From Savitreella phatthalungensis (taxonomy: Eukaryota): DNA of 64,000 bases. A program made the position numbers and the translations under genes. Numbering within the stretch: the stretch's first letter is position 1; every line of letters starts with the position of its first letter. Shown piece after piece: positions 4,676-42,426 of this stretch. The stretch covers positions 124,001-188,000 of the forward strand of contig AP039715.1 in the NCBI GenBank assembly GCA_051599415.1. The letters are read 5' to 3'. The notes below the pieces were generated by a model, which made no database searches, was not told the DNA's origin, and saw only the letters and a list, made by a program, of their open reading frames with translations.

Positions 4676-5292
4676 ACGTCTGTTCCCCTTCCTGAAGACT
4701 ATATGGCCTTCTGTGATGACCTTCGACTTGCCTCAAGGACGGACTAGCTGGAAGGTATGAGTTCAATTTTGTGGGAAAGCACGTACGCTTTCGACGTCAT
4801 ACAAACCAATCAATATTATTTTTTATGCTTGGGCACTGCATCTGAAGTTGTGGATACATTGCATGAGATCCAGAATCGAACGAGAGTATACATGTGTTCT
4901 CTTGATCATGCTGAGGTTCGCTGTAAGGACGTACGATCGAGTGTGCGTGGCCAGAGGTAGTCTAGCGGCCGTCAATGTAAGCTTGAAAGATCTGCTGAGC
5001 TACAGGTCAGGTTTTTACATTGATGCATATTGACAAGACCACGTAGGTTCAATCGTTTGGTTACTTGCTCTCGGAAGCGAAGCTATTCGCCTGATCCGAC
5101 GAGCGAGGACAATCAGATGTGTGAGCAGAGACGCAGAGGGGAATAAAGGGGGAGGATTGAAATATGTTACATATGACACTACGTCGAAGAAGCTTGAATT
5201 TGATGATAAGTTTTTGTGGTGCCAGAGTCAAAAAAGTTGGCGGTCAATGGGAGACGTTCGCATGTGTCGGACATCCGAATAGTATACGCTCT

Positions 5293-12055: not shown

Positions 12056-12646
12056 TTAAGCAGCCGCGTCTGCATCCTCGTCGTCAGAATCATCATCATC
12101 GTTGTCGTCGTCAGCATCTGCTCCAGCGTTCTTGCGGCCTTTGCCAGTCTTGCGCTTGGGCAGAGCACCGCAGAGTGGTAGTCCAAGTGCCTTGCACTGC
12201 GCATTCTCCTGCTCGAGGATGCGGGAGAGGTATGCATTTGATTGTCCCTGGAGCTCCACAATCGCGCCACGCGCTGCAGCAACCCATGACTGTCGGTTCT
12301 TTCGAGCTTCGACGTCGTCGTCTGAGCGCCCAGGCTTGCTCGATTCGTTCTCCTCGACCTTGTCAGTGAATGCTTCTAGCTCGAGTGTCGTATAATGCTT
12401 CGTTGGAAGTCGCGTCACCCGTGGGCTCGCTGCGGCCGACTCCGGTGGACGGAGACCATAGGCATCGTCTTCAGGCGGGTTTGTGGCCTCGCGAGTCGGC
12501 AGGAGCCAGTCGCCTGAGGCCTGTGCTGCACCGGATGGGTTGAACGGCAAATGGATCGTCTCCGAGACAGTCTGACCCGCCGGTAGGTCAGCTTCGTGAA
12601 GCAGCGTCGCCTTCAGCGTGCCAGGTCGAGGCAATGACTCCATCAC
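12056..12646 (-). CDS. Probable Gon7/Pcc2-like EKC/KEOPS subunit
   Basis: Helix ARGAIVELQGQSNAYLSRILE resembles the Gon7 core (LRxxLxxLQxxINxFLTxxME) followed by basic then acidic tail; similarity judged by eye. Confidence 0.5.
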   Translation of the reverse strand: MMESLPRPGTLKATLLHEADLPAGQTVSETIHLPFNPSGAAQASGDWLLPTREATNPPEDDAYGLRPPESAAASPRVTRLPTKHYTTLELEAFTDKVEENESSKPGRSDDDVEARKNRQSWVAAARGAIVELQGQSNAYLSRILEQENAQCKALGLPLCGALPKRKTGKGRKNAGADADDDNDDDDSDDEDADAAA

Positions 12647-12888
12647 TATAGGATGGCGAGCACTGAACGAGCACGTATGAGAATATATGAATGTCTCCTA
12701 GACACATGGTTTTATTCATGTGATCGACCTATATGGGCAAATTACAGAACTCGATTTTGCACGTCAAATACATACACGGCTCAGCCTGGATCGGCTACGC
12801 ACTTCCGCGACAGTCGATTGCGCGCAATGAGTTGGACATTACCCGGTGATTGTCCAATCTACGGGAACTGCAGCCAGATCTGCAAGTT

Positions 12889-15800
12889 CTATAGAATCTG
12901 CTCCATTTGTTGTTGCTCTTCCGCCGCGATGGCTTTCTCGCGTTCGCGCTTGTCGTAAGTATCGACATCGATCGAGTCTAGTGTGATGAACCGATGGACG
13001 TGAACTTTTTGTCGTTGGCCGTAGCGCAGCGCTCTGCCAATAGCCTGTGTCTCTTGAGAGGTGTACTTGGTGAGAGAGTCCGCTAGAATGGGAGACACGA
13101 AAATGACGTGGTTCGCGCCTGTAAGATTAGCACCAGAGGCGGATTCGTCGGTGATGTTGAGAACAAGCACCTTTGTTGGGCCGTCCTCAGAAGACTCCTG
13201 TTGGAAACGCTGAAGTGCCTTTGACTTCTGCGACGCGCTGCCAACGATTCTGAGATACTGCACCTCGTGATGCTCCAGCGCAATCACAACCTTTTCCGTG
13301 AGATCCTTGAACTGACAGAAGAGCAGGACTTTCTCATCCTTCGGCAGAGAGTTGATCAGCTTGATGACTTCTTCGAGCTTTGTGCCAAAGTGCTTCTGAA
13401 TGACGGACTCTTTCGCAATATCTTCTTCCTCGCCAAGAGATGTCGATCGCACAATCACATTCATCACGCCGGGGGACTGACAGCCCTCAGCAGGACATGA
13501 TTGTGTGCGCGAGGCAAGCTCAAGACATTCATAGCAACCGACATGACCGCAAGTTGAGAATACACAGACGTCGGCGAGTTGCAGCGCGAGTCTCTCGCCG
13601 TCGGCACTACGATGAGTGCAATTTGGGCCCGGGCAGACAAATTTGACACTCGGCTTGACATGCTCGGGCAATGAGCTCGAGTTTAGTCGCTGAAGATCAC
13701 GCACGACCTCGAAGAAGCGCAATGATCTCTCCCTTCCAACAAGTTCCTTCTCTAGGCGCTTCAGCTGATGAGATTTGTCCTTGAAGCGACGTCGAAGATC
13801 GTCAATGGCGTCCGGTTGCCGTGAGATGAGCTTCTCAGGGTCTTCCTCGTACGTGACACGCGTATATGCCGACTCATGCGGAACATTGTCCGACGTGCTC
13901 TCAAGCACGCGTTGTCGATCGATGAAAGCTGCAGTGTGGCGTTGCGGTAAATCTGGCATGCGCTTTGAGTCAATGGCTCCCTCACACAGGCTGATCATGC
14001 CCTGAATTCTGTTCGTGGCATCTGCATCATCTGCGCGGTTGCGCATGTGCATGAGCCAATTACGCAGGATGCTCTCGGGGTCGTAAAGGTGCTTGCGATT
14101 CTTTCGCTCCTCCCTAAGCAGTTCCCAAACGTGGCGATAGAGATCGAGCTCACAATCGCGCAGCTGCTTTGTGCGCTCCGCCACGAGAGCATCACACATC
14201 AGAATCGCATTGCCGTCCTTGTCGTGTTCCCTATCGAGGTCGAAATGCGAGCAGCGCTTGAGAAGCGCCTCTTCCGCAGAGTCACTTTCTCCGAACGCAT
14301 CTGCGATCCTCATCTCGCGGTCAGATCTGTCGCCCTTGCGGATCTTCTTTATATTCATATCGAGAGCTTGGAGATGGTGCAGGAGCTCGAGATAGATGGC
14401 CCGCTCTGCCGCTGGCAGAATAATCTCGTGGCGCAGCTCCACGGACGGGATCTCATCGATCTCGGCCTTGTTCTGGCGAACGAACTTACGGAGGAAGCGC
14501 TCAGCCTGTCTGTATCTGGAAAGATGCCATGCAGATGACTTGACCTCACGGAACGAGTGGAACTTTTCTGTTTGTGTACTGTCTCGCGCAGGTTTGACAT
14601 CATCGACACCAAGATTTATACCGAGGAACACGGAGATCGTCTTGATGGCTGCAAAGTCGTCAACTGGAGGTGTGCCAGATAGAATCCATCTGCGATCGGC
14701 GCGCATATGCATTGCCATGCGGTGAAGAATTGGCGTCTCCTCTAGATACGTGTACTCGTCAATCACAAGTCGAGACCAGTGGAAGAGCTCGAGAGTGGGA
14801 CACAACATCTTTGACGCGTCCTTTGCTTTCCGCAAGCCCCATGGATCAGCCGAGCCTCGAATTCGTTCGTGAGCAGAGCTTGGCTTCTGCTTCAGCAATT
14901 CGACTGTCTCCTTGAGCCCGGCAAGAGCCTCGGAATGGCACTGCTGGAAGTGTCTTCCCTTGGTCAACGGGATCTTAGTCGACGCGCCAAGTGCGGACAG
15001 ATTCTGTAAATACGCTTCCATCTTGAAGAGCGACACCTGAACACAGACTATGTCCGCAGCCTGGATTTCCTGCACAGTGAGTCTCTTGAGGTGAGCCATG
15101 TTCTCAATCTTGATGCACCGAGTCGAGTGACCTAAGAACTTTTCCACTTCCGCAGGCCACTGCTTGATCAAGTGCGCAGGGACGATGATCAGTGTAGCCT
15201 TGGTAGAGACATAGCCGTACGTATCAGGTGGAGTGATTTCGGGAGACGCAGCGATAAGTCCAAGAGAAATGGCCGTCTTTCCGTATCCGACTTCGTCAGC
15301 GAGCACACCGCCTCGAACATGGACTTCTCGCGTGGCTCGAACCTCAGCACGCCAACCTAGTGGGGACAAAAGCGCCTCCACTGTCTCTTCTTCCACGAAG
15401 GGCGTGACATCTTCTCGCTCCTGGGCGAGCATCCACGTCAAAGAGCGAAGTTGCTCCCTGCGTAACGGCAGGCGGAATCCTGGAGGCTGTTCCGACTCAA
15501 CCTCAGCCTTATTAGAGTTCTTTGCGAGCTCCCTTGAGAATGAGGGAAGGATGCGCTGGCGCTCAATATAGGTATTGTCAAGACGCCACGAGCAAATCGC
15601 AGGTGCTCCTCTGTCGGGAAGCCTCGAAATGGCAAGATGCGCCATCGATGCGATATTGAGGCCAATGCGGAATTGCGCTTGCCCATCGCGGAGTCGGTAT
15701 TGCGCGGCAAATGCAGGCGGGCGCTTTTTGAGAGCCTGCTCGTACGCGCCAGCCTCGCCGATATCTTCAATGCCCACAATTTTGCGACCTGCACCCTCAC

Positions 15801-18800
15801 GGAAACGAATTCTCGGTGGCGTTGGAGCACATCGAGCACAGTCTTCGAATGGACCAGAGATCTTCTGCCAAGATGCAAAGTCCCCGAGTTGCAGCCTGAG
15901 GCGTTCAGTCAACCACGAGAGTTTCTTGAAGATGCGAGCTTCGTGCAATTTATCCACCTGTTGCCAATCAGTCGGCCAGCTTTGACTCTCCAGAGGCAGC
16001 TGTAGGCTTAATAAGCAGTCAGCTCCAGAGCAATCATGGGCAGACGCCTCGAACACAGGAGTCATACTTGAGAGCCTTGCAAGCTGGTGAGGCACGGGCT
16101 CAAGAACGACATCGCTGTCTCTCCAGACGCCTTCGATGGATACAGTCGAAGTTGATACCTTGTTGGGATTGGTCGTGCTTGGATTCTGGCGCCACTCCGG
16201 CGCAACTACTGCTGTGACAGCACGAACCTCGCCGTACTCGAGGCGTCGGTGGTTGATGGCGAAGACGAATGAGTCCATGCTGTTTGGTGTACATCTACCT
16301 GGATCGAGGAAGAAGAAAAGGCCCGAATCGTCCGAGAAATGAAGCGAGTTACCCGCGGCAGCGCACTTGTCATGCAGGTGATATCGGCCAGAGATCGGCC
16401 GATCGAGGACTCCATCAGCCGATGGATCCACGGCGATATCAAGATACCGCCAGACGCGTTTGTTCTTGATCTCTGGAGTTTGAATGCCGAGTGACATCTC
16501 CCATGACGGAACGAGGTCACCAAAATCCTCTGCGCTAGACGAATTGACGCCGATACCAGTCTCGCCACCTGTAAAAGTCGCCTTGAAAGAGTGCTTTTCC
16601 GGAGTCAGTACCTGCCACTGACCGTCAAGGAGACTGGAGTTCCGGTCAAGGACAAGTCTCGCAACAGGTTGTGAGAATCTTTTCCGGTCAGCGGAGTTCG
16701 AAGCAAGGTTTTTGTCCGGGATGACGAACAGCCGCCATTCCGGTAGCGCAGGGTCGAGGACGAGTTCGAGTGTGGCAACATCAGATGCGTATCCGGCAGT
16801 CCAGATCTCTCGCCGCTGGAGACCTGTGAACCGGAGCTCGCTTGTAAGAGCGCGCTGCACACTCCCATCGTCCGAGGTGCCCTTGAAAAGAAGTCTCATG
16901 GGTAAGTCCTGCTTGAGCGCTTTCGCGAACTCAAGCGGATCAATCCGATCGACACTGAGAAGCTCGAAGTTATGCTGTGGACGACCCATGCAGCGAGAGC
17001 ATGCTGTGAACCCGCAATCTCGGCACTGGTAGATCTTACGCGCCGTAATGTTGGACTGCCCTTCACATGCGCAAAGTCGTCTGGACCGCTGGGCTTGTGA
17101 CAACCAATCAGCAACCTTCGCATGGGATACTGCTCCTAGATCGAACTCAGTCGTTTGCATAGCACTGCTGCGAACACTGGTGATATCATCAGTCCTTTCC
17201 TGTACCATCGATACGTCGCGATCCTTGATTCTATGCTCGGAGAGGGTGAGCGCTGCAAGAATAACCGCGCCGATGACCGTGGTGCTCATGGCGTTGCCTG
17301 CCAAGTCCATACAATTATCTTCTGTCTCTCTTGTGAGAAGCAACTTGTCGAGAGGAAGACCTTGCATGCCGAGTGCTTCGTAGCCAGTCATGGGGCCACC
17401 GCGATTGGATATGTATGGAATCATGGACGGTGTCATACATGGACAAAGTCCACCTCTCGGATATCCAATGCGATCGACGTTTTGCGAGAGGTTCCAGACC
17501 ATCGTCTTGTAGGCGGCGTCGACACCTTTGATTGCGTAGCGCATGATGGAAATGTCAAGTAAGTCGAGCACACGCTCGGGTTGGAGCACGGCCCAGTCGT
17601 TCCAGGCATAGTCCGGCATCGTGCAACCACCGCCTTCAACCCATAAGGTTAGCGGACGTCGGTCGCCAAGCTCTTCGGTAAAGCGGGCATTGCGATGACG
17701 CACCTCACATCTCGCCCAGTCAATGGCGTTGCGGGACGACTGTGCATTCGCGAGAGCAGTCCTTGCTTTGATAGTTCTGGGGTCGTCCTCGGCCATCAGG
17801 AACGCCTCAATTGGGGACGATGCAGGTCGCGCCATACCTTGAACAAGGGATCGCCATTTGTGTGGAATTGTCTCTCCTAAGGTCTTTTCCCCTCGATCGA
17901 TCGCACACATATACCCTCGCTGCCTCGTGTGCGGGATGTAATAGGATTTCGTGTCCACCCGTAGCCACTCAGCATCATATCCGGCCGCCCTAAACTTTGG
18001 GCACACGCTCTTCTCCCACGGCGCGCTGAGGACGTTTTCGAGGATGACGACGGTCGGCCTGTGCTTCTTGACCCATCTAAGCATGCCTCCGAAAGTGCGA
18101 GCCGATTGGCCGGTGCCGTCGATCTCTTGCTTGCTGTTGTTGAGGTTGGAGAAGTCTACGCAGGACGTGCCTGCAATCAGGATATCAATGTCTCCAGGTA
18201 CTTTGACCTTGGCTCCGTAAGCCGTCGTCGCGAATTCGTCGCCGAGTTCACAAACGTCGCGGAAGAGTAGCGGTGGCTGGAAATTACGCTCAATGTAAGC
18301 CTGCTTGAAGGGCTCGATCTCGCATGAGAAGACATGCTCAACAGCCAGTGATTTGCCGTAGACACGCGACACGAGTGGTGCGATGACAGACAGCGCAAGG
18401 AGCGGCGACTCTGTGCCGGAGCACATCGTCGCAACTCGTAGCTTCCTGCCGTCCAGCTTGCGGAGAAGCTTCTCGAATCCAGCGGCCCGAAGCCTCTCAC
18501 CACGAATCATGTCTTCAAACATCTCATTCAGGTCATTGATCGGTGGCAGGTGTGTAAGGTCCATTGGTGTCTTTACAGCAGATTCTTTAGGTCCTGTAGT
18601 AGAGGTTGTACTGGTCTTGACGCGTTTGGTTGGTCGCTTTAGTGTTGGCTCTGACAACACGTCGGACACATCGTCATCACTATCCGCATCGATGTCGTCA
18701 GCGTCATCGTCACCGACACGTCGAAAGTCAACCTCAGCACCATCCTCCTCGGAGTCCTGCTTGAATTGAGAGCTTTCGCTACTGCTGACGGACTCTGCGT

Positions 18801-19137
18801 CGCTAGGTTCGAAGTCGTCGTCGCTATCAACGCGCTTCCGCTTCCGCGTCTTAGGCAGCTCTTCGTCTTCAGCCTCATCCTCAGACTCAGATACTGCTTG
18901 TTTGACAATGACAACTCTAGACGCTGCTCTCGGCCTCTTCAGAAGCTGTACGACGGATTTCGGGCTCACTGTGGGCTTTGCTCCAGATTCGGACTTCGGG
19001 ATCGAGTTTGGCGCTGAAGCTTGCTGATAAATCACCACTTTCGGGACCGGCTTTGGTTCGTATGGAGTCAGCGGCTTAAAGAAGCTACTCAGTATAGCCT
19101 GCTTCCCCTTTGCAGCCGGCTGCTGAGGTCTGGCCAT
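12889..19137 (-). CDS. DNMT5: DNMT5-type cytosine-5 DNA methyltransferase fused to SNF2 ATPase with RING-like insert
   Basis: MTase motifs TMCSGTESP, SCEIEPFK, AGTSCVDFS (SC catalytic motif), ILENV, PHTRQRGY, LAGNAM; SNF2 motifs GGVLADEVGYGKT, VIDEY, LSGTP, QAIGRALRYGQ; Cys clusters CRDC..CSRC and CGHVGCYEC..CPAEGC; intronless 2082 aa. Confidence 0.92.
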   Translation of the reverse strand: MARPQQPAAKGKQAILSSFFKPLTPYEPKPVPKVVIYQQASAPNSIPKSESGAKPTVSPKSVVQLLKRPRAASRVVIVKQAVSESEDEAEDEELPKTRKRKRVDSDDDFEPSDAESVSSSESSQFKQDSEEDGAEVDFRRVGDDDADDIDADSDDDVSDVLSEPTLKRPTKRVKTSTTSTTGPKESAVKTPMDLTHLPPINDLNEMFEDMIRGERLRAAGFEKLLRKLDGRKLRVATMCSGTESPLLALSVIAPLVSRVYGKSLAVEHVFSCEIEPFKQAYIERNFQPPLLFRDVCELGDEFATTAYGAKVKVPGDIDILIAGTSCVDFSNLNNSKQEIDGTGQSARTFGGMLRWVKKHRPTVVILENVLSAPWEKSVCPKFRAAGYDAEWLRVDTKSYYIPHTRQRGYMCAIDRGEKTLGETIPHKWRSLVQGMARPASSPIEAFLMAEDDPRTIKARTALANAQSSRNAIDWARCEVRHRNARFTEELGDRRPLTLWVEGGGCTMPDYAWNDWAVLQPERVLDLLDISIMRYAIKGVDAAYKTMVWNLSQNVDRIGYPRGGLCPCMTPSMIPYISNRGGPMTGYEALGMQGLPLDKLLLTRETEDNCMDLAGNAMSTTVIGAVILAALTLSEHRIKDRDVSMVQERTDDITSVRSSAMQTTEFDLGAVSHAKVADWLSQAQRSRRLCACEGQSNITARKIYQCRDCGFTACSRCMGRPQHNFELLSVDRIDPLEFAKALKQDLPMRLLFKGTSDDGSVQRALTSELRFTGLQRREIWTAGYASDVATLELVLDPALPEWRLFVIPDKNLASNSADRKRFSQPVARLVLDRNSSLLDGQWQVLTPEKHSFKATFTGGETGIGVNSSSAEDFGDLVPSWEMSLGIQTPEIKNKRVWRYLDIAVDPSADGVLDRPISGRYHLHDKCAAAGNSLHFSDDSGLFFFLDPGRCTPNSMDSFVFAINHRRLEYGEVRAVTAVVAPEWRQNPSTTNPNKVSTSTVSIEGVWRDSDVVLEPVPHQLARLSSMTPVFEASAHDCSGADCLLSLQLPLESQSWPTDWQQVDKLHEARIFKKLSWLTERLRLQLGDFASWQKISGPFEDCARCAPTPPRIRFREGAGRKIVGIEDIGEAGAYEQALKKRPPAFAAQYRLRDGQAQFRIGLNIASMAHLAISRLPDRGAPAICSWRLDNTYIERQRILPSFSRELAKNSNKAEVESEQPPGFRLPLRREQLRSLTWMLAQEREDVTPFVEEETVEALLSPLGWRAEVRATREVHVRGGVLADEVGYGKTAISLGLIAASPEITPPDTYGYVSTKATLIIVPAHLIKQWPAEVEKFLGHSTRCIKIENMAHLKRLTVQEIQAADIVCVQVSLFKMEAYLQNLSALGASTKIPLTKGRHFQQCHSEALAGLKETVELLKQKPSSAHERIRGSADPWGLRKAKDASKMLCPTLELFHWSRLVIDEYTYLEETPILHRMAMHMRADRRWILSGTPPVDDFAAIKTISVFLGINLGVDDVKPARDSTQTEKFHSFREVKSSAWHLSRYRQAERFLRKFVRQNKAEIDEIPSVELRHEIILPAAERAIYLELLHHLQALDMNIKKIRKGDRSDREMRIADAFGESDSAEEALLKRCSHFDLDREHDKDGNAILMCDALVAERTKQLRDCELDLYRHVWELLREERKNRKHLYDPESILRNWLMHMRNRADDADATNRIQGMISLCEGAIDSKRMPDLPQRHTAAFIDRQRVLESTSDNVPHESAYTRVTYEEDPEKLISRQPDAIDDLRRRFKDKSHQLKRLEKELVGRERSLRFFEVVRDLQRLNSSSLPEHVKPSVKFVCPGPNCTHRSADGERLALQLADVCVFSTCGHVGCYECLELASRTQSCPAEGCQSPGVMNVIVRSTSLGEEEDIAKESVIQKHFGTKLEEVIKLINSLPKDEKVLLFCQFKDLTEKVVIALEHHEVQYLRIVGSASQKSKALQRFQQESSEDGPTKVLVLNITDESASGANLTGANHVIFVSPILADSLTKYTSQETQAIGRALRYGQRQKVHVHRFITLDSIDVDTYDKREREKAIAAEEQQQMEQIL

Positions 19138-19187
19138 GGCTGTAGTTCAGCTCTCCACCCCAAGCTCCTGTGTTAAACCTTGCTCAA

Positions 19188-19211
19188 GCGCGTCCCAGTA
19201 GAGACGCGTCT
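19188..19211. promoter_or_regulatory. MCB-like elements upstream of DNMT5
   Basis: ACGCGT at 19204-19209 inside palindrome AGACGCGTCT and a second CGCG at 19189-19192, within ~75 bp of the ATG. Confidence 0.35.
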
Positions 19212-19475
19212 GAGATATTAATAGATGTCTCATAATCCGTTGCAGGCACGTGTATTTCAGTGCTCCGATCGAGATCATGTGTATGTTCAGGAAAGTTCTT
19301 GTTTTTGCTCGGATGGATTTCTCGCTTTATTGGCTTCCGAATATTCGAGGATCAGGTAGGCAGGAGGCTGGTCCAAATGATCGAGACAATGAAACAAGAG
19401 AAGCATGGCCATGCAATTGTACTACTCTGTCCCGGGTTCGCGACTGTTTGCCCGGGCTCTCGTGCGGGTCATACT

Positions 19476-19839
19476 CTACTTCTTGACCTCGTTGGCAGCT
19501 TCTTGAGCCTTCTCGGCTGCCTTCTGACCTGTACCGCCAATGGCGCCGTCCTTCTCAAATTGCTTGCCAATTGCGCCACTGTGATTGAGTCAGTATGTCT
19601 TCCTCTCGTGATCCAGCACGATGTGGCAGGCGATTCACTTACTCCTTAGAAAAAGCACCGCCTACATCCTTCTCAAACTTCTGTCCGATTTCGCCCTTGC
19701 TGGTGAACTTGCTGCCAATCTCTCCATCAGCCTTGAATTTGCCTGCAACCTCCTTGACCTTCTCAGCAGCCTTGTCAATGGCGCTCTTGTCATTGCGACG
19801 AATAGCTGCAGTGGCGAAAGAGCGGCGAAGAGCAAACAT
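19476..19839 (-). CDS. Spliced 99-aa hydrophilic LEA-like repeat protein with probable mitochondrial presequence (exons 19839-19643, 19578-19476)
   Basis: 64-nt intron 19642-19579 GTAAGT...TACTGAC...CAG; product MFALRRSFATAAIRR...FKADGEIGSKFTSKGEIGQKFEKDVGGAFSKDGAIGKQFEKDGAIGGTGQKAAEKAQEAANEVKK. Confidence 0.85.
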
Positions 19840-19875: not shown

Positions 19876-19914
19876 TATATATATTCGCCTAGCTATTTTT
19901 TCGTGTGACGTCAC
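19876..19914 (-). promoter_or_regulatory. TATA box and palindromic ATF/CRE site upstream of the LEA-like gene
   Basis: TATATATA at 19876-19883 and GTGACGTCAC at 19905-19914 (overlapping the stop codon of the upstream gene). Confidence 0.45.
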
Positions 19915-21989
19915 GAAGGCCTACTGAAGAAGTCCCATATTTGTTGCTGCTTCAGCTTCGAAGCAGCAGCCTCTTGCGCTGGAGATGATACAGGTACAAG
20001 AACGGGCGGGGACGGATGCACGCGAGGCGGCGGTGGAGGCGGCGGAGGGGGTCCTGGTGTGTAAGGCGAATACTGCGAGTGATGTGGTGGCCATGTATGA
20101 TGAGGAGGATACGCGTGCATATGGTGTTCTGGTCGTGTGTACGAGGACGAGTAGTGAGTTGGTGTGCTGCGAAAAGGATCCGGATATAGCGGTGGGGGCG
20201 GCGGAGGAAGCTCTGGAACCTGTGGAACTGAGCGATGCTGGGGCAAAGGCGTGCTCGCGAGCTCGTCCGGCACCACATTCTCCTTCTTTCTGCGCTTTTC
20301 CTTCTTGGTCTGCTTCGTGTCAAACATAGCGATAAACTTGCGGTCCTCGTCGCTGAGCGCGTAAGAAATTCGCTTAGCCTTCGGCATGTGCTCCTCTAGT
20401 TGACGAAGCTCTTCCTCTGACACGTCATATTTGAGCCGTTTGCTCGTCGGCTTAGCCTGTACCATCTCCTTCGTTTCTGAGCGCTTCTCCTCCGGATTCA
20501 CGGATGTACGAGCTGAGCTTGTAGCAACGGATGCTGTGGTCCTTGATGTTGCAGTATTTTGCACAGCAATGGGCGCAGGGGCAGGTGCTGGGGCAATCGC
20601 AGGAGCAGGGGCAGGTGCTGGGGCAATCGCAGGAGCAGGAACAGCAGCACTCTGAGCTACCGGTAGGCGTGTAGGCTCTGGCTTGGTCTTTGCTGGCTTC
20701 CGCTGCTTTGCCCGCTGCTCGTCCTGCAAACGCTTCAGTAATCTCAACATTGCCTGCTTTTCGTGTTCCTCCTCGTCGAGCTCCTCTTTGCTCTTCTTAC
20801 GCTTGACACGCTTGATCACGGTGCCATCATTGCGGACCGATCGCGTGCACTCCCCACAAGCACCGTATCGCTTTTGCCTCGAAGAGAGCTTGGAGTGGTC
20901 TTCGAAACTTAGCCAATCGAAGCCGAGCTTTCTTTCTCTCCGTTTTCGACGTTTCCGTTCTAGCGGTGACTCGAGCACTTTGCGTACACATCTTTCAATC
21001 TGCCGTCCCGTGTAGCAGGCATGAAGCCGTCCTGTTTCCTGTTTGAAGTCCCGCAACTCCTGCTCGAGCGATCCGGAGTCGATCAAGTCGATCAGCTCGA
21101 CTGCTGCAAGACCCATTAAGTAGATCGAGTCTTCCGGCCACATGCACAGCCTCATGGCCTCTAGGAGCCGCTCGTGCAGAGGCTCAAACTGCTCTTTCGC
21201 ACGTTGAAATTGAGCTATCGTCGGCGTTTTGAAGCGTCCTAGGCCATCAGAGATGCTGTCCCAATCAAGCATGCGTACGCGTCTGGCGATGTAGATGATG
21301 AGGAGATCGTGCGAAGTATAAACGTCATTCTTTGGCCGATTGAAGTACGTCGCAGCTGATTGTGCTGCCGTCTGAATGTAGGTTGGCAATTCTGGTTCTG
21401 GCGAAGGCTCCTTTATCGCTGGAGGTCGGTCAGTCGATGGAGAATCTGCGGGCGCAGGTTGCTCTGCTTGTGGCGCCGCTTCCACGGGCACGACGGGAGG
21501 TGCGGCTGGTGATACCTCGAGTGGTGGAGTGGGCTCACGCTCGACTGGCAACGGACCAGTTGCACTGAAGACGCCGTCGTGCTTTCGTTTCCGACCTGAT
21601 GGTAAATCTTCCATCTTGTCCTCCGGCCGTCTCGACAACCTAGCAAATTCTTGTTTGAGTGCCCACTGGATTAGGTTCTCCTCTGATTGCGAGTCGAATC
21701 CATCCATCATATATCCACGTATCATCTCCTTTGCGATGCACCAGACCGGGTGCATCTGCTGCAATATTTCGGCCTTTCCGCGGGATGCAACCTGTCTCAT
21801 GACGCGTAGCTGTGTATCTGTGATACCGTCGAATGACCTCAGCCTGTCCGCACAGGTTCGCAACCTTGCATTGAGCGTGTTGACTGTGATATCGAAATAG
21901 GTGGCGACGACAGGTCTTTGAATGACTGTATATCGACACGCGACATCGATAGCCAGATAATCGACGATAGAGACGGACTGGCCTGGCAT
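19911..21989 (-). CDS. 692-aa uncharacterised protein with TFIIB/cyclin-repeat-like N-terminus, Pro-rich linkers and C-terminal PIP box; may have additional 5' exons
   Basis: Long ORF; GQSVSIVDYLAIDVACR...VVATYFDITVNTLNARLR resembles a TFIIB repeat; ends QQQIWDFFSRPS. Confidence 0.7.
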   Translation of the reverse strand: MPGQSVSIVDYLAIDVACRYTVIQRPVVATYFDITVNTLNARLRTCADRLRSFDGITDTQLRVMRQVASRGKAEILQQMHPVWCIAKEMIRGYMMDGFDSQSEENLIQWALKQEFARLSRRPEDKMEDLPSGRKRKHDGVFSATGPLPVEREPTPPLEVSPAAPPVVPVEAAPQAEQPAPADSPSTDRPPAIKEPSPEPELPTYIQTAAQSAATYFNRPKNDVYTSHDLLIIYIARRVRMLDWDSISDGLGRFKTPTIAQFQRAKEQFEPLHERLLEAMRLCMWPEDSIYLMGLAAVELIDLIDSGSLEQELRDFKQETGRLHACYTGRQIERCVRKVLESPLERKRRKRRERKLGFDWLSFEDHSKLSSRQKRYGACGECTRSVRNDGTVIKRVKRKKSKEELDEEEHEKQAMLRLLKRLQDEQRAKQRKPAKTKPEPTRLPVAQSAAVPAPAIAPAPAPAPAIAPAPAPAPIAVQNTATSRTTASVATSSARTSVNPEEKRSETKEMVQAKPTSKRLKYDVSEEELRQLEEHMPKAKRISYALSDEDRKFIAMFDTKQTKKEKRRKKENVVPDELASTPLPQHRSVPQVPELPPPPPPLYPDPFRSTPTHYSSSYTRPEHHMHAYPPHHTWPPHHSQYSPYTPGPPPPPPPPPRVHPSPPVLVPVSSPAQEAAASKLKQQQIWDFFSRPS
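20575..20639. repeat. Perfect 30-bp tandem duplication inside CDS (PAPAIAPAPA)
   Basis: GCAGGGGCAGGTGCTGGGGCAATCGCAGGA twice plus 5 nt. Confidence 0.95.
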
Positions 21990-24775: not shown

Positions 24776-24872
24776 AAACTTACGCCGGCCAACGACCTAG
24801 ACAAAATCATTAGACAAATTGCGACATTCTGTTAGTACGTATTTTACAATCACGACATATGATATTCTTTGG

Positions 24873-27248
24873 ATGACGACAACGTCGATGAGCGCAATAT
24901 TAGACTATGCCGTTCCCTCGATCCTGCTCTTGTGGTGGGTATTTGCACCGGCGGGAAGTCAGGCTGTCGTCCGCGGCGCTCACATCACGATCTTCCTCAT
25001 CCTCGCCGCATTACTTCTCACAATCACTGGAGAGGCAGCATCTATCATCGTTCATGCATTGACAAAGCCTGGCTGGTACGCCCCTCAGCACCGCATCGTC
25101 TATTTGCTTGGCAGTTTCTGTGTCTGGTCGGGTGTCCTTGCAAGTCTTGTTGGCTCACCTCGCCAGCTGTGGAGTATTCAGACAGTCGGAGGATTCGCAT
25201 CGGGATTCCTGTTCGAGGGCGTCAGGCTCGTGCTGACGGCGAAATGGTCTTCGCGGTGGCAAGCGATTGCGCTAGGCCTCGTCTCCGCGAGGACGACTCT
25301 CCTTGCCGCTGCATTCGTCATTGCTCTCGCCGCCCCGCGCAATCCTTCAGAAACGCAGCCGCTCCTGCATGAACCAGAGGCACCCGCCGCACGGCCCGTC
25401 AATCACGCGACACCGTACCAGAAGGATGCCATGCCGCCGAAGTCTACGGGCGGCGCAATTACTTACCTTCGAAAGTTCTTCGTCTTCTTCCCACATCTCT
25501 GGCCGAAGGATGATCGCAAGCTCCAGCTCGTTGTTATGTTCTGCTTTGTGCTTCTGCTCGCGGCACGCGTCATAAACGTCCTTGTTCCCCGCCAGCTTGG
25601 CATTGTGACTGACGGCCTCGCTCATTCGGAGTCGAACGTATGGTGGTCGGTGCTTATCTACGTCTCCCTGCGCTTTCTGCAGTCCAATATGGGTGTCCTT
25701 GGCGCCCTCCGAACTCAGCTATGGATTCCCGTTGGTCAATACACCTACAGGTCATTGGCGACCTCATCTTTCGAGCACGTGCATTCTCTGTCCCTCGACT
25801 TCCACATCGGCAAGAAGACGGGCGAAGTCCTGTCCGCGCTCGATAAGGGTTCGGCTATCAACTCCTTCCTCGAGCAACTCGTCTTCAACGTCCTTCCAGT
25901 CATCGTCGACCTTTTCGTGGCTGTCGTATACTTTCTCGTCGAGTTCGATGCGCTGTTTGCTATGATAGTCGGCGCCATGACGGTCGCCTACCTCTTTGCG
26001 ACAGTCAAGATTACCGAATGGCGTACAAACATCCGCAGAGACATGGTCAACAAGTCGCGCGATGAGTATGGCGTCAAGGCTGACTCCATCACCAACTATG
26101 AAACCGTCAAGTATTTCAATGCGGAGCGTTGGGAATTTGCCCGCTACCGCAAGGCCGTCGAAACCTTCCAGGCGGCAGAGTGGAAGGTCCTTTCATCCCT
26201 CAACCTCATGAACGTTACGCAAAATTTGATATTCACGCTCGGTCTCTTGGCAGTCTGTCTCCTGTCTGCCTATCGAGTGAGCTTCGGACAAAGCACGGTG
26301 GGTGGCTTCGTTGCCATTCTTACATACATGGCTCAGCTTCAAGGGCCATTGAACTTCTTCGGTACCTTGTATCGCTCATTGCAGAGCAATCTCGTGAACG
26401 CTGAACGCATGCTGGAGCTTTTCACACAAGGCGCTACCGTGAAAGACGCCGATGACGCCCGTGAACTCGTTTTGTCTGCTGGCCAGGTCCGATTTGACGA
26501 TGTCACATTCTCCTACGACGGCCGGCGACCCGCCCTACAGAACCTCTCCTTCGTTGCTCGTCCCGGTCAGACTGTTGCTCTGGTCGGAGAGTCTGGCGCG
26601 GGCAAGACGACCATTCTCCGCTCGCTGTTCCGTTTCTACGATGTCACATCCGGCAGTATCACGATCGATTCTCAAGACATCCGCAGTGTCACCATGGACT
26701 CTTTGCGGCGCACGGTCGGCGTCGTTCCACAGGACACAGTCCTGTTTAATGACACCATTCTCTTCAACATTCGATATGCGAAGCCGGACGCCACGATCGA
26801 AGAAGTCCATGAGGCCGCTCGGCAGGCGCAGATTCACGACAAGATCGTTTCTTGGCCGGACGGCTATGAGTCGAAGGTGGGCGAACGCGGTTTGCGCCTT
26901 TCCGGTGGAGAGAAACAGCGCATTGCGATTGCTCGAACAATCCTGAAGAATCCGTCTGTGATCCTCCTCGATGAGGCCACATCAGCCCTCGACACGACCA
27001 CGGAGCGGCATATCCAGCGGGCACTCGATACACTGTCTCAAGGCAGGACGACGATCGTGATTGCACATCGTCTGTCGACTGTCATTCACGCCGACCAGAT
27101 CCTCGTCCTGGCTGGAGGCAAAGTCGTCGAGTCTGGAACGCACCAGGATCTGCTGGAAGTAAAAGACGGGGTGTATCATGGCATGTGGCAGAAGCAGATC
27201 ACACGTGATCTAGACGCTGCGAAGGAAGTTCCGAAGGCGACAGAATAG
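24873..27248 (+). CDS. HMT1: Half-size ABC transporter, heavy-metal tolerance protein (ABCB6/Hmt1 type)
   Basis: N-terminal TMD0, HVHSLSLDFH..KKTGEV, NYETVKYFNAE, Walker A GESGAGKT, LSGGEKQR, ILLDEATSALD; first ATG 24873. Confidence 0.9.
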   Translation: MTTTSMSAILDYAVPSILLLWWVFAPAGSQAVVRGAHITIFLILAALLLTITGEAASIIVHALTKPGWYAPQHRIVYLLGSFCVWSGVLASLVGSPRQLWSIQTVGGFASGFLFEGVRLVLTAKWSSRWQAIALGLVSARTTLLAAAFVIALAAPRNPSETQPLLHEPEAPAARPVNHATPYQKDAMPPKSTGGAITYLRKFFVFFPHLWPKDDRKLQLVVMFCFVLLLAARVINVLVPRQLGIVTDGLAHSESNVWWSVLIYVSLRFLQSNMGVLGALRTQLWIPVGQYTYRSLATSSFEHVHSLSLDFHIGKKTGEVLSALDKGSAINSFLEQLVFNVLPVIVDLFVAVVYFLVEFDALFAMIVGAMTVAYLFATVKITEWRTNIRRDMVNKSRDEYGVKADSITNYETVKYFNAERWEFARYRKAVETFQAAEWKVLSSLNLMNVTQNLIFTLGLLAVCLLSAYRVSFGQSTVGGFVAILTYMAQLQGPLNFFGTLYRSLQSNLVNAERMLELFTQGATVKDADDARELVLSAGQVRFDDVTFSYDGRRPALQNLSFVARPGQTVALVGESGAGKTTILRSLFRFYDVTSGSITIDSQDIRSVTMDSLRRTVGVVPQDTVLFNDTILFNIRYAKPDATIEEVHEAARQAQIHDKIVSWPDGYESKVGERGLRLSGGEKQRIAIARTILKNPSVILLDEATSALDTTTERHIQRALDTLSQGRTTIVIAHRLSTVIHADQILVLAGGKVVESGTHQDLLEVKDGVYHGMWQKQITRDLDAAKEVPKATE

Positions 27249-28446: not shown

Positions 28447-28620
28447 ACTTACGGATAATTAGGACAGTTCACGCTGCGGTACACCACATGCAATGACGCG
28501 CTAAGCCATGGCCGCAGCGAGACCCAGCGTGTCTGAAACTGATGGTCATCACCATCAATCGTATATAACCTCAAGAGTCAAGAGTGACGAAGATAGTCAC
28601 TCGACTTTGAACCATACAAT

Positions 28621-39206: not shown

Positions 39207-39489
39207 CTTCAGTGAAGAAGATTGAGACTCCTTTATGTCAGACCCCAGGTCAGCGAGAGCCTCGATGAATGGCGACAGCGATTCTGCACGCGCTCTATCC
39301 GACGGGCGCCTATCAACTATACGTAGATGTGACAGAAGATCTTGCTATGGACCGGGCTTTACGTGCATTGACACAACAATTACAAAACAATTATAAGAGG
39401 TAGAATATGAATCTCAAAGTAACAAATAGTGTTTGTAATGTAACACAAAAAGAAAGGTTTGTAGATTGACCATCGGCCAGTCCTTCATT

Positions 39490-42419: not shown

Positions 42420-42426
42420 CGACAAC

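What the first reader, a model, noticed from the sequence alone, without database searches (positions are those of the whole stretch)
19078..19211. DNMT5 with an N-terminal PCNA PIP box and MCB promoter instead of a chromodomain
Seen: residues 13-20 are QAILSSFF (19101-19078), a canonical QxxLxxFF PIP box; the ~200 aa before the MTase domain are low-complexity with no recognisable chromodomain; ACGCGT lies 67 bp upstream of the ATG. Established: Cryptococcus Dnmt5 is an ATP-dependent CG maintenance methyltransferase recruited via an H3K9me-binding chromodomain/Swi6 and Uhrf1; MCB boxes drive G1/S expression in yeasts. Inference: replication-fork-coupled targeting through PCNA, convergent with mammalian DNMT1.
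Basis: partly seen in the sequence, partly recalled or inferred. Interest (0 to 1): 0.72.

Follow-up and report, generated by a model that had tools for sequence, protein, structure and literature searches.

The report
DNMT5 methylase with PCNA-docking tail
This fungal gene encodes DNMT5, the enzyme that copies DNA methylation marks, and its floppy front end carries a short tag of the kind that hooks proteins onto the DNA replication clamp; the tag is conserved in many fungi, which suggests the enzyme often travels with the replication machinery.

Summary
Window 12889-19137 (-) is one uninterrupted 2082-aa DNMT5 gene (C5-methyltransferase, RING-like Cys cluster, SNF2 ATPase). QAILSSFF is residues 13-20 (19101-19078). 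ACGCGT lies 67 nt upstream of the ATG, with a second ACGCG core 16 nt away. There is no chromodomain and no room for an upstream exon.

The feature is not peculiar to this genome. A strict PIP box (Q-x-x-[LIM]-x-x-[FY]-[FY]) sits in the otherwise unalignable N-tail of 77 of the 119 nearest homologs, against 0.02 expected from shuffles. None occurs in 248,733 residues outside the tails. It is found in Agaricomycetes, Pezizomycetes, Taphrinomycotina, several lichen-forming ascomycete classes and chytrids, sometimes together with a chromodomain. It is degenerate or lost in most Dothideomycetes, in rusts and in the Cryptococcus lineage, the only one studied biochemically.

The MCB hexamer is unremarkable inside this window. 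However, clustered ACGCG cores recur upstream of all 13 distinct PIP-bearing DNMT5 loci I could fetch (30 seen, 6.1 expected).

Best reading: S-phase-expressed, PCNA-tethered maintenance methylation, ancestral in fungal DNMT5. PCNA binding and periodic expression are untested. None of the papers I searched or read describes a DNMT5 PIP box, and a 2026 review states that DNMT5 acts independently of the replication apparatus.

The parts
12889..19137 (-). DNMT5 coding sequence, 2082 aa, one uninterrupted ORF (stop codon included)
   Evidence: Pfam domains. Nearest solved structure is C. neoformans DNMT5 7r76, E=0, 1361.9 bits.
19078..19101 (-). PIP box QAILSSFF, residues 13-20, flanked by KGK before it and K after it
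   Evidence: Q13 and F20 are the only nearly invariant tail columns besides M1 in a 22-sequence alignment of hand-picked motif-bearing homologs. Local pLDDT island with a helix at 16-19.
18550..19137 (-). Disordered N-terminal tail, residues 1-196: basic start carrying the PIP box, then acidic and Ser-rich blocks, then a basic and Thr-rich end
   Evidence: Composition. pLDDT below 50 and no secondary structure for residues 25-189. No Pfam family.
18832..18852 (-). KTRKRKR, residues 96-102, a basic cluster that looks like a nuclear localisation signal (inference only)
   Evidence: Sequence. Not tested.
17749..18345 (-). C5 cytosine methyltransferase domain, Pfam best stretch residues 265-463. 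The conserved core starts at LPPI, residue 197, and motif I (MCSGTES) is at 238-244.
   Evidence: Invariant columns C239, G241, C326, E367, N368.
13480..13620 (-). RING-like Cys/His cluster, residues ~1840-1886
   Evidence: Nearly invariant C1840, C1863, H1865, C1871, C1881, C1886. Pfam does not call a RING domain in this protein.
14611..15453 (-). SNF2-related ATPase domain, residues 1229-1509. Walker A G1286-K1287-T1288 and DE box D1460-E1461.
13018..13380 (-). Helicase C-terminal domain, residues 1920-2040
19204..19209 (.). MCB hexamer ACGCGT (palindrome), at -72 to -67 from the ATG
19188..19193 (-). Second MCB-like core, ACGCGC, at about -56
19138..19475 (-). 338-nt intergenic and promoter interval between the stop of the upstream same-strand gene and the DNMT5 ATG. 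It holds no coding potential for a domain.
   Evidence: Open frames are at most 75 aa. None matches any Pfam family at E<=10.
19476..19839 (-). Neighbouring small two-exon gene (intron 19579-19642). It bounds the DNMT5 promoter and is not part of DNMT5.
   Evidence: A contig in public run X6 joins 19578 to 19643 (GT..AG on the minus strand) and runs on to 19426.

Best explanation
The gene encodes an intact DNMT5-type CG maintenance methyltransferase (MTase, RING-like cluster, SNF2 ATPase). Its only recognisable targeting element is a canonical PIP box 13 residues from the N-terminus of a ~195-residue disordered tail. The proposed mechanism has four steps. (1) Clustered MCB cores just upstream of the ATG place transcription under the fungal Res/MBF-type G1/S factor, so the enzyme is made as S phase begins. 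(2) The PIP box, with its basic flanks, docks in the hydrophobic pocket of PCNA on newly replicated DNA. (3) The long flexible tail lets the tethered MTase-SNF2 core scan the hemimethylated CG sites just behind the fork. (4) The core methylates those sites in the ATP-dependent way shown for the Cryptococcus enzyme. Shown here: the motif, its setting in disorder, its conservation in orthologs, the intact catalytic motifs, and the recurrence of MCB cores in orthologous promoters. Inferred: PCNA binding, periodic expression and methylation activity. The same arrangement is the common and probably ancestral state of fungal DNMT5. The Cryptococcus lineage lacks the PIP box and has an N-terminal H3K9me-reading chromodomain.
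For: Motif and coordinates. Chance in this protein's own tail: 10 of 20,000 shuffles.

Conservation, counted in four sets.
- Nearest homologs: a strict PIP box lies in the tail of 77 of 119, against a shuffle mean of 0.02 and maximum of 1. No strict motif occurs in 248,733 residues outside the tails. The median position is residue 13, and 67 of 77 lie within the first 20 residues.
- Representatives of 50%-identity clusters: 16 of 130, against 0.12 in shuffles.
- Pooled homologs with tails of 60 aa or more: 83 of 270, against 0.2.
- Metagenome loci: 22 of 80.

In an unsupervised MAFFT alignment of 22 hand-picked motif-bearing proteins from three phyla, Q13 and F20 are the only nearly invariant tail columns besides M1. 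The flanks are basic in the window and in the 98-sequence profile. AlphaFold2 predicts a disordered tail whose only local order is at residues ~7-24, with a helix at 16-19.

The enzyme is intact: Pfam domains, catalytic, Walker A and DE-box columns, and the nearest solved structure is 7r76.

MCB: all 13 distinct PIP-bearing loci have at least one ACGCG core within 300 nt of the ATG, and 8 of 13 have the full ACGCGT. There are 30 distinct cores against 6.10 from dinucleotide shuffles, and 0 of 500 shuffles reach 30. Fisher's combination over 10 lineages gives p = 4.9e-7. The cores lie at -22 to -264; the window's are at -72 and -56. A third group of DNMT5 loci without a PIP box shows no enrichment: 14 against 12.49.

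Literature. MCB is the G1/S element in S. pombe and C. albicans and is the likely ancestral motif in Dikarya (PMC5448814, passages). The DNMT5 SNF2 domain belongs to the Rad5/HLTF/SHPRH subfamily linked to replication forks (bioRxiv 10.1101/2020.01.05.895227, passages).
Against: No binding data exist, and the complex prediction was not run. No RNA data cover the gene, so neither the start site nor periodic expression is shown.

Within this window the promoter is not distinctive. It has 2 cores, as do 3 of 20 other ORF-upstream regions, and 12.7% of sliding 300-nt windows have at least 2.

The PIP box is not universal. It is absent or degenerate in 42 of the 119 nearest homologs and in 114 of the 130 representatives. 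It is absent from most Dothideomycetes, rusts and Tremellomycetes. DNMT5 can therefore work without it, as in Cryptococcus.

The homolog sets are phylogenetically lopsided, with many Agaricomycetes, so the counts overstate the number of independent events. Some apparent absences are truncated gene models: 27 of 119 tails are shorter than 60 aa.

PIP-like motifs can bind partners other than PCNA (recalled). The whole genome is not held, so PCNA, Uhrf1, HP1 and other DNMT genes could not be checked, and no methylation data exist for this organism. CpG o/e in the window is 1.03 with no depleted stretch.
Confidence: 0.72

Rival explanations
1. The PIP box is real and functional, but the ACGCG cores upstream are incidental. 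The gene would then be expressed constitutively, with coupling to replication achieved through PCNA alone.
For: In this window the hexamer occurs 25 times, about 0.1 per 340 nt. Three of 20 other ORF-upstream regions also have 2 cores, and 12.7% of sliding windows do. No expression data exist.
Against: The cores recur at -22 to -264 in all 13 distinct fungal loci. There are 30 against 6.10 expected, and 0 of 500 dinucleotide shuffles reach 30. Six further loci with degenerate motifs give 14 against 4.44. Fisher's p is 4.9e-7 for 10 lineages. Among those 10, the only upstream-region match is one 26-nt stretch between L030 and L074. A PIP-less group of loci shows no enrichment.
Confidence: 0.25
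2. The motif is a PIP degron. PCNA-bound DNMT5 would be ubiquitinated by CRL4-Cdt2 and destroyed in S phase or after damage, which would restrict methylation rather than target it.
For: The motif is canonical with basic residues nearby. In orthologs position 5 is Thr in 42 of 98 and position +4 is Lys in 38 of 98. PIP degrons operate in fission yeast, a member of the same subphylum (PMC3152358; search listing and abstract only).
Against: By the rule as I recall it (Thr-Asp at positions 5-6 and a basic residue at +4), the window protein fails both: it has Ser-Ser at 5-6 and Thr at +4. Asp at position 6 occurs in only 4 of 98 orthologs. Destruction in S phase would oppose both a maintenance enzyme's task and G1/S-type promoter elements.
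Confidence: 0.07
3. The motif binds a partner other than PCNA that accepts PIP-like peptides (for example a Rev1- or Mlh1-type site), or it serves another role such as nuclear import.
For: Overlap between PIP, RIR and MIP motifs is known (recalled; not checked in any paper here). No binding test could be run.
Against: Where the motif is present the full eight-residue PCNA pattern is kept, including Q1, in 97 homologs. RIR and MIP motifs do not need Q1 (recalled). The position at the extreme N-terminus with basic flanks matches known PCNA clients such as DNA ligase I/Cdc9 (PMC1865074; listing and abstract only).
Confidence: 0.08
4. The motif is a chance match or is not translated, because the true start is M193 and the tail is 5' UTR.
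For: M193 lies just before the conserved LPPI block. No transcript data are available.
Against: The 196 codons upstream of the conserved core are free of stops, and the frame closes three codons before M1. The chance of the motif in the tail is 10 in 20,000. Orthologs have the same motif at the same distance from their own M1 (median residue 13).
Confidence: 0.03

Closest known systems
Cryptococcus neoformans Dnmt5 (PDB 7r76, 7r77, 7r78, 7t02; deposited as 'DNA repair protein Rad8')
   Same: The order is the same: C5-MTase, RING-like cluster, then a SNF2 ATPase of the Rad5/HLTF type. The match is E=0 at 1361.9 bits. The catalytic, Walker A and DE-box columns are conserved. It is an ATP-dependent, hemimethylated-CG-specific maintenance enzyme (bioRxiv 10.1101/2020.01.05.895227 and 10.1101/149385, passages).
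   Different: The Cryptococcus-lineage proteins carry an N-terminal H3K9me-reading chromodomain (residues 69-176 in P0011, P0072 and P0118) and no PIP box. The window protein has the reverse arrangement. Their recruitment runs through H3K9me, Swi6 and Uhrf1.
Mammalian DNMT1 N-terminal PCNA-binding domain
   Same: It is a maintenance CG methyltransferase whose N-terminal region holds a PCNA-binding element that concentrates it at the replication fork (review PMC13297926, Fig. 5 legend).
   Different: The catalytic and regulatory architecture is unrelated (RFTS, CXXC, BAH; no SNF2 ATPase). The resemblance would be convergent. The DNMT1 motif sequence is recalled and was not compared here.
N-terminal PIP boxes of replication and repair enzymes, such as DNA ligase I/Cdc9
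   Same: A Q-x-x-h-x-x-a-a motif sits within the first tens of residues of a disordered N-terminus with basic flanks. The yeast PCNA-Cdc9 peptide complex has been solved (PMC1865074; listing and abstract only).
   Different: Those clients are DNA-synthesis or repair enzymes. Here the client is an epigenetic writer. A phmmer search of residues 1-40 against PDB chains found nothing.
Rad5 / Rad8 / HLTF / SHPRH SNF2-RING proteins
   Same: The DNMT5 SNF2-RING module belongs to this subfamily, which acts at replication forks. Many DNMT5 database entries are named rad8 or RAD5 (PMC7862722).
   Different: Those proteins lack the methyltransferase domain. Their link to PCNA is as its ubiquitin ligase (recalled), not through an N-terminal PIP box tested here.
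Tetrahymena AMT1-AMT6 6mA maintenance complex
   Same: It is a maintenance DNA methyltransferase complex recruited by PCNA to restore methylation after replication (review PMC13297926, section 4.2.2).
   Different: It carries out adenine methylation with an MT-A70 enzyme in a ciliate, and recruitment is through a separate subunit.
MBF/Res-MCB G1/S regulon of fungi
   Same: ACGCGT or ACGCG cores are clustered within a few hundred nt of the start codon. MCB occurs in G1/S promoters of S. pombe and C. albicans and is the likely ancestral motif (PMC5448814).
   Different: Neither DNMT5 nor DMT5 appears in any passage I saw of the MCB paper PMC5448814, and none of my searches looked for DNMT5 among reported MBF targets. 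Factor binding and periodic expression are untested here.

Membership tests
DNMT5 (MTase-RING-SNF2 maintenance methyltransferase) | C5 cytosine methyltransferase domain with motif I, the catalytic Cys of motif IV and ENV of motif VI | tested here: met
   PF00145, E=2.9e-15. Invariant columns C239, S240, G241, C326, E367 and N368 in 22 full-length homologs.
DNMT5 (MTase-RING-SNF2 maintenance methyltransferase) | C-terminal SNF2 ATPase with Walker A, DE box and a helicase C domain | tested here: met
   PF00176, E=1.9e-19, and PF00271, E=8.5e-11. G1286, K1287, T1288, D1460 and E1461 are invariant.
DNMT5 (MTase-RING-SNF2 maintenance methyltransferase) | RING finger within the SNF2 region | tested here: inconclusive
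   Pfam calls no RING domain in the window protein. The Cys/His columns C1840, C1863, H1865, C1871, C1881 and C1886 are nearly invariant. Orthologs give sub-threshold zf-RING hits towards the C-terminus, before Helicase_C where that domain is reported.
DNMT5 (MTase-RING-SNF2 maintenance methyltransferase) | Closest relative among characterised proteins is DNMT5 itself | tested here: met
   The only PDB match at E<=1e-10 is 7r76 and its companion entries. Homologs include one named 'DNA (cytosine-5-)-methyltransferase dmt5' (P0072).
DNMT5 (MTase-RING-SNF2 maintenance methyltransferase) | N-terminal chromodomain, given as a family character in bioRxiv 10.1101/149385 | tested here: not met
   None at E<=1, no fold in the tail and no upstream exon. 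However, only 8 of 119 homologs have any chromodomain, and in four of those it lies inside the SNF2 region. It therefore does not define the family.
DNMT5 (MTase-RING-SNF2 maintenance methyltransferase) | ATP-dependent methylation specific for hemimethylated CG | not testable with these tools
   A biochemical property, shown only for the Cryptococcus enzyme.
Canonical PIP box (PCNA-interacting peptide) | Q-x-x-[LIM]-x-x-[FY]-[FY] | tested here: met
   QAILSSFF, residues 13-20
Canonical PIP box (PCNA-interacting peptide) | Lies in an accessible disordered region or terminus and forms a short helix | tested here: met
   pLDDT below 50 for residues 25-189, with a local island at ~7-24 and a helix at 16-19. 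Composition. This is a prediction, not a measurement.
Canonical PIP box (PCNA-interacting peptide) | Conserved in orthologs although the surrounding sequence is not | tested here: met
   77 of 119 against 0.02 expected. 16 of 130 against 0.12. Q13 and F20 are the only nearly invariant tail columns besides M1.
Canonical PIP box (PCNA-interacting peptide) | Binds the hydrophobic pocket of PCNA under the interdomain connecting loop | not testable with these tools
   No cognate PCNA sequence was available because no genome is held. The complex job was not folded.
PIP degron (CRL4-Cdt2 substrate) | Thr-Asp at motif positions 5-6 and a basic residue at +4 (rule recalled from memory) | tested here: not met
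   Ser-Ser at positions 5-6 and Thr at +4. Asp at position 6 in 4 of 98 orthologs.
MCB / MBF-type G1/S promoter | ACGCGT or ACGCG cores, usually clustered, within a few hundred nt upstream | tested here: met
   ACGCGT at -72 to -67 and ACGCGC at about -56
MCB / MBF-type G1/S promoter | More than chance in this promoter alone | tested here: inconclusive
   2 cores against 0.27 in dinucleotide shuffles, reached by 2.3% of them. But 12.7% of sliding windows and 3 of 20 other ORF-upstream regions have 2.
MCB / MBF-type G1/S promoter | Conserved in orthologous promoters | tested here: met
   All 13 distinct loci have at least one core. 30 against 6.10, with 0 of 500 shuffles reaching 30. Fisher's p = 4.9e-7 over 10 lineages.
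MCB / MBF-type G1/S promoter | Bound by Res/Mbp1-Cdc10/Swi6, with mRNA peaking at G1/S | not testable with these tools
   No RNA holder was listed for the gene.

The most novel reading that the evidence does not exclude
Tethering to PCNA through an N-terminal PIP box, together with G1/S-type MCB promoter control, is the ancestral mode of action of fungal DNMT5, still kept in many lineages. The one enzyme studied so far, from Cryptococcus, would be a derived exception that lost the PIP box and relies on a chromodomain, Swi6 and Uhrf1. The statement that DNMT5 works independently of the replication apparatus would then be wrong for many fungi. Because the SNF2-RING module is of the Rad5 type, the PCNA-resident enzyme might also use its RING to mark PCNA or nearby chromatin; this last step is pure speculation.
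Probability: 0.45. Interest if true: 0.78.

Novelty: new variant of a known kind. Interest (0 to 1): 0.66.

Why it matters
How DNMT5 finds freshly replicated, hemimethylated DNA is known only for Cryptococcus, where it depends on H3K9 methylation, Swi6 and Uhrf1. In that work DNMT5 is drawn as a chromodomain enzyme (bioRxiv 10.1101/149385). A 2026 review says it acts independently of the replication apparatus (PMC13297926).

The data here show that many fungal DNMT5 proteins have no chromodomain and instead keep a canonical PCNA-docking motif at the very N-terminus. Their promoters also keep G1/S-type elements. If the motif works as its conservation suggests, faithful CG-methylation inheritance in mushrooms, truffles, lichen fungi, chytrids and this Taphrina-like ascomycete would be coupled to the fork as DNMT1 is in mammals, by a convergent route.

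It also gives a simple handle, an FF-to-AA mutation, for separating replication-coupled from chromatin-guided maintenance. The window's gene adds a DNMT5 in a Taphrinomycotina lineage with no close relative in the databases searched.

Tried and rejected
- Whole genome: none is held for this window. PCNA, Uhrf1/SRA, HP1/Swi6, Clr4 and other DNMT genes of this organism could therefore not be sought.
Names for the PIP-less group came instead from a second homolog search.
- RNA evidence: no RNA holder is listed for the stretch. The four runs laid cover only the neighbouring small gene (19426-19837) and nothing of DNMT5.
I did not pursue it further.
- A phmmer search of residues 1-40 against PDB chains gave 0 matches at E<=10.
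- Upstream chromodomain exon: the frames in 19138-19554 are at most 75 aa and match no Pfam family at E<=10. The first attempt failed on stop codons.
- PIP-degron reading: rejected on positions 5-6 and +4.
- Relaxed 'core' motif [LIMV]xx[FY][FY]: found in 29 of 187 tails that lack a strict motif, against 6.07 expected. Three of these, in P0011, P0072 and P0118, lie at or within the C-terminal edge of the Pfam chromodomain stretch and are not PIP-like. A fourth, in P0130, has the same sequence as the P0118 one, but P0130 was not scanned. I therefore use this count only as a hint that some Dothideomycetes keep a Q-less version.
- Third group of 43 metagenome loci (39-40% identity, short tails): I had labelled them 'marine' in scripts by guess, and no call shows their origin. 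They have no strict PIP box in the contiguous ORF. In 23 distinct loci there is none in any frame of up to 1.5 kb upstream, and less where the contig ends sooner.
- CpG o/e is 1.03 across the window with no depleted 1-kb stretch. This says nothing either way about methylation in a gene-rich region.
- The first two tree scripts failed or timed out. The tree uses only 620 residues of the core and FastTree, and it does not resolve where the window protein belongs.
- The scan's own notes hold nothing for this genome and nothing on a DNMT5 PIP box.
Full report
**1. What is in the sequence**

The minus strand of window 12889-19137 is a single open reading frame of 2082 codons starting at ATG 19137-19135. 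The frame is closed by a stop three codons upstream of that ATG. ACGCGT lies at 19204-19209, 67 nt from the ATG. A second core, ACGCGC, lies at 19193-19188.

Pfam finds a C5 DNA methylase domain (residues 265-463), an SNF2-related domain (1229-1509) and Helicase_C (1920-2040). It finds no chromodomain even at E<=1. The only solved structure that matches at E<=1e-10 is Cryptococcus neoformans DNMT5 (7r76, 7r77, 7r78, 7t02), at E=0 and 1361.9 bits.

In an alignment with 21 full-length homologs, the following columns are invariant or nearly so:
- motif I (C239, G241), the catalytic Cys326 and E367-N368;
- the Walker A G1286-K1287-T1288 and the DE box D1460-E1461;
- a RING-like Cys/His cluster (1840-1886).

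The gene therefore looks intact and is a DNMT5.

**2. The N-terminal tail and the missing chromodomain**

The conserved core begins at LPPI (residue 197). The 196 residues before it are rich in S, D, K, P and E and hold seven aromatic residues. AlphaFold2, given a 22-row alignment, folds the methyltransferase part confidently (block pLDDT mostly 70-94). Residues 25-189 get pLDDT below 50 and no secondary structure. The single local island is residues ~7-24 (block mean 66), with a one-turn helix at 16-19 inside the PIP box.

An upstream chromodomain exon is very unlikely.
- The next gene on the same strand is a small two-exon gene ending at 19476. A contig in public run X6 joins 19578 to 19643 across a GT..AG intron and continues to 19426.
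- The remaining 338 nt hold no open frame longer than 75 aa, and none matches any Pfam family at E<=10.
- Orthologs carry the same motif at the same distance from their own first Met.

**3. Is the PIP box more than chance?**

In this protein alone, shuffling the tail produces a strict motif (Q-x-x-[LIM]-x-x-[FY]-[FY]) in 10 of 20,000 trials. Shuffling the whole protein does so in 79 of 2,000. The decisive test is conservation, and I examined four sets.

(a) *Nearest homologs.* These are the 119 nearest homologs, out of 897 with E<=1e-10; only the best 120, the query's own entry among them, are listed. I defined the tail as everything before the LPPI block.
- 77 of 119 have a strict motif in the tail (64 of 92 with tails of 60 aa or more).
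- 500 shuffles of the same tails give a mean of 0.02 and a maximum of 1.
- There are no strict motifs in the 248,733 residues outside the tails, against 77 in 12,667 tail residues.
- The median position is residue 13, and 67 of 77 lie within the first 20 residues.
- 27 of the 119 tails are shorter than 60 aa. Several gene models start just before LPPI, or at a Met inside the motif (for example P0101), so some absences are annotation artefacts.

(b) *Cluster representatives.* These are 150 representatives of 50%-identity clusters from an exhaustive HMMER search. 130 have a locatable motif I, and 16 of those 130 have the strict motif, against 0.12 in shuffles. Two strict motifs occur in 244,430 residues outside the tails.

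(c) *All homologs pooled.* Of 351 homologs, 270 have tails of 60 aa or more.
- 83 have a strict motif, against 0.2 expected.
- 112 have the core [LIMV]xx[FY][FY], against 7.4 expected.
- Among the 187 without a strict motif, 29 have the core, against 6.07 expected. Examples in Dothideomycetes are ...RITSFF...DIRTFF and ...SIQDYF. The three hits in P0011, P0072 and P0118 lie at or within the edge of the chromodomain and must be discounted; a fourth, in P0130, matches the P0118 sequence but was not scanned.

(d) *Metagenome loci.* Of 80 metagenome loci encoding DNMT5 relatives, 22 have the strict motif in the ORF upstream of the core.

MAFFT, run without guidance on 22 hand-picked motif-bearing proteins, aligns the motifs. 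It reports Q13 and F20 as the only nearly invariant tail columns besides M1. The profile of 98 motifs is K-A-R-x-K-G-Q-K-S-I-T-S-F-F-[GK]-[GK]-P-K-K-K. The window reads PAAKGK-QAILSSFF-KPLT, so the basic flanks are shared.

**4. Who has it and who does not**

| State of the motif | Lineages |
|---|---|
| Strict motif present | Many Agaricomycetes; Pezizomycetes (Terfezia, Peziza, Ascobolus); Saitoella (Taphrinomycotina); Sarea, Candelaria, Piccolia, Sclerophora, Chaenotheca; Taxawa; chytrids (Borealophlyctis, Rhizophlyctis, Fimicolochytrium, Chytridium, Blyttiomyces) |
| Absent or degenerate | Most Dothideomycetes; the Orbiliomycetes sampled; Pucciniales; a Microbotryomycete; Tremellomycetes |

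A FastTree of 61 cores (618 columns, with the tail left out) puts the window protein on a long branch (0.81). It is unresolved among Pezizomycetes, Orbiliomycetes, Agaricomycetes, Saitoella and chytrids, and its best identity is 58%. It has no close relative in the databases searched.

A neighbouring ABC transporter has its best named matches in Protomyces (74% over 83% of the query), Taphrina deformans (64%) and Pneumocystis (53%). The organism is therefore probably a Taphrinomycotina member near the Taphrinomycetes. No Taphrina or Protomyces DNMT5 is among the 120 proteins listed.

*Chromodomains.* Only 8 of the 119 nearest homologs carry PF00385. Pfam places these domains as follows:

| Protein(s) | Extra domain and position | PIP box in the tail |
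|---|---|---|
| Three Tremellomycete proteins | Chromodomain at the N-terminus (69-176) | None |
| Borealophlyctis | Chromodomain at the N-terminus (17-66) | Yes, at 146 |
| Four Spizellomycetales proteins | Chromodomain inside the SNF2 region (~1455-1605) | Strict at residue 35 in P0083; degenerate (QSSMDMFV) in P0024; cut by the gene-model start in P0101; none found in P0061 |
| Blyttiomyces | MBD at 140-185 | Yes, at 330 |

The chromodomain is thus a scattered addition. The PIP box is the more widespread element, and it co-occurs with a chromodomain in chytrids. 'Instead of a chromodomain' describes the contrast with Cryptococcus, not the history.

**5. The MCB element**

Inside this window the evidence is weak.
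- ACGCGT occurs 25 times, against 16.5 +/- 3.9 in shuffles.
- Paired cores within 25 nt occur at five places in 64 kb.
- The DNMT5 upstream 300 nt has 2 distinct cores. So do 12.7% of sliding windows and 3 of 20 other ORF-upstream regions.
- Dinucleotide shuffles of the 300 nt give 0.27, and 2.3% of them reach 2.

Across species the picture changes. From the 22 PIP-bearing loci I kept those with an ATG in the ORF, the motif within 35 residues of it, 300 nt of upstream sequence and a distinct upstream region. That left 13. The nine dropped were L005, L016, L017, L018 and L071 as duplicates, L008 and L009 for having no ATG, and L073 and L076 for too little upstream sequence.
- All 13 have at least one ACGCG core in -300..-1, and 8 have the full ACGCGT.
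- Counting a palindrome once, there are 30 cores against 6.10 from dinucleotide-preserving shuffles. None of 500 shuffles reaches 30; the maximum is 17.
- Empirical p-values from sliding windows elsewhere in each locus combine by Fisher's method to 1.8e-10 for the 13 loci.
- For ten lineages, taking one locus per motif-flank type, the combined p is 4.9e-7. The only match among those ten upstream regions is a 26-nt stretch shared by L030 and L074.
- The cores sit at -22 to -264, usually two or three within 6-40 nt. The window's pair at -72 and -56 fits this pattern.

Six hand-picked loci with degenerate motifs give 14 against 4.44, with 0 of 500 shuffles reaching 14. They represent about two lineages. 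Seven loci of a third, PIP-less group give 14 against 12.49, and 170 of 500 shuffles reach that. This control is weak because their true first exon may lie further upstream.

MCB is the G1/S element in S. pombe and C. albicans and is the likely ancestral Res-type motif in Dikarya (PMC5448814, passages).

**6. Non-fungal DNMT5**

Forty-three loci match residues ~164-202 to 2064 (or to the contig end) at 39-40% identity. They have short tails without the motif. In 23 distinct loci of this group no frame within up to 1.5 kb upstream holds a strict motif. Their origin is not shown by any search. That note made me run the upstream scan. The PIP box may therefore be a fungal feature, but this is not settled.

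**7. How it most likely works**

*Shown:*
- a canonical PIP box with basic flanks at the tip of a long disordered tail;
- its conservation where nothing else in the tail is conserved;
- intact catalytic and ATPase motifs;
- recurrent MCB clusters in orthologous promoters.

*Inferred:*
- the gene is switched on at G1/S by the Res/MBF-type factor;
- the PIP box docks on PCNA left on newly replicated DNA;
- the ~175-residue linker lets the MTase-SNF2 core reach hemimethylated CG sites behind the fork;
- the core methylates those sites in the ATP-dependent manner shown for the Cryptococcus enzyme (bioRxiv 10.1101/2020.01.05.895227).

The SNF2 module belongs to the Rad5/HLTF/SHPRH subfamily associated with replication forks (same preprint), which makes a location at PCNA plausible. 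The PIP-degron alternative fails on positions 5-6 (Ser-Ser) and +4 (Thr) by the rule as I recall it.

**8. Comparison with what is in print**

- The Cryptococcus work describes the family as 'characterized by an N-terminal chromodomain' and recruits Dnmt5 through H3K9me, Swi6 and Uhrf1. The word PCNA does not occur in that preprint (10.1101/149385, find) or in the biochemical preprint.
- A 2021 review of fungal DNMT domain structures does not contain the word 'chromodomain', and none of the passages shown mentions a PIP box or PCNA; I did not search it for those terms (PMC7862722, find).
- The full-text search for DNMT5 with PCNA returned 18 papers, 11 of them listed. I read the relevant passages of five and none links the two.
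- Searches for DNMT5 with 'replication fork' and with 'S phase' added nothing. The search combining DNMT5 with PIP terms listed only papers without DNMT5 among its top 20 of 543.
- Subscription papers (Huff and Zilberman 2014, and the 2022 cryo-EM paper) were not searchable, and preprint supplements were closed. 'Not in print' therefore means not in the library I could search.

**9. Verdict**

The inference of PCNA coupling is well supported by comparative evidence but has not been tested directly. I rate it a new variant of a known kind, namely a known enzyme family and a known docking motif in an unreported and testable combination.

Noticed in passing
window 19476-19839 (-): A small two-exon gene lies directly upstream of DNMT5. 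It has a presequence-like start (MFALRRSFATAAIRR) and repeated G-x-IG-x-KFEKD units, and neither exon matches a Pfam family. Spliced contigs 95-99% alike occur in four public runs.
   Followed up: partly
window 19911-21989 (-): A 692-aa ORF has no Pfam family at E<=1e-5. The same is true of the ORFs at 12056-12697, 28597-29460, 38163-39344, 39490-40377, 42322-43260 and 53877-55415.
   Followed up: no
P0014 (Blyttiomyces DNMT5), residues 140-185: A chytrid DNMT5 carries a methyl-CpG-binding domain (PF01429, E=4.7e-6) in its N-tail, together with a PIP box at residue 330. That would put a 5mC reader, a writer and a clamp hook in one protein.
   Followed up: partly
P0024, P0061, P0083, P0101 (Spizellomycetales DNMT5), residues ~1455-1605: The chromodomain is inserted inside the SNF2 region rather than at the N-terminus. 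This position differs from the one in Tremellomycetes and Borealophlyctis and suggests independent acquisitions.
   Followed up: partly
L014-L080 (43 loci, e.g. L025, L031, L078): A large group of DNMT5 loci matches residues ~164-202 to 2064 (or to the contig end) at 39-40% identity. They have short tails and no PIP box in the ORF, and in 23 distinct loci none within up to 1.5 kb upstream. Their origin is unknown and they may be non-fungal.
   Followed up: partly
window 24801-27248 (+) and whole window: The best named matches of the Hmt1-type ABC transporter are Protomyces (74%), Taphrina (64%) and Pneumocystis (53%), so the window probably comes from a Taphrinomycotina fungus. No Taphrina or Protomyces DNMT5 is among the 120 nearest DNMT5 hits.
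   Followed up: partly
window 1-64000: CpG observed/expected is 1.03 overall, and no 1-kb stretch is below 0.6. This gene-rich region shows no sign of methylation-driven CpG loss.
   Followed up: no
L001 and L002, about 6000-6520 and 4775-5290: In Pezizomycete-like DNMT5 loci the PIP box (KQLSMMNFF and KQLSMMSFF) lies in an ORF with no Met before it. The first exon must therefore lie further upstream, as in the Terfezia and Peziza models, where the motif is at about residue 100.
   Followed up: no
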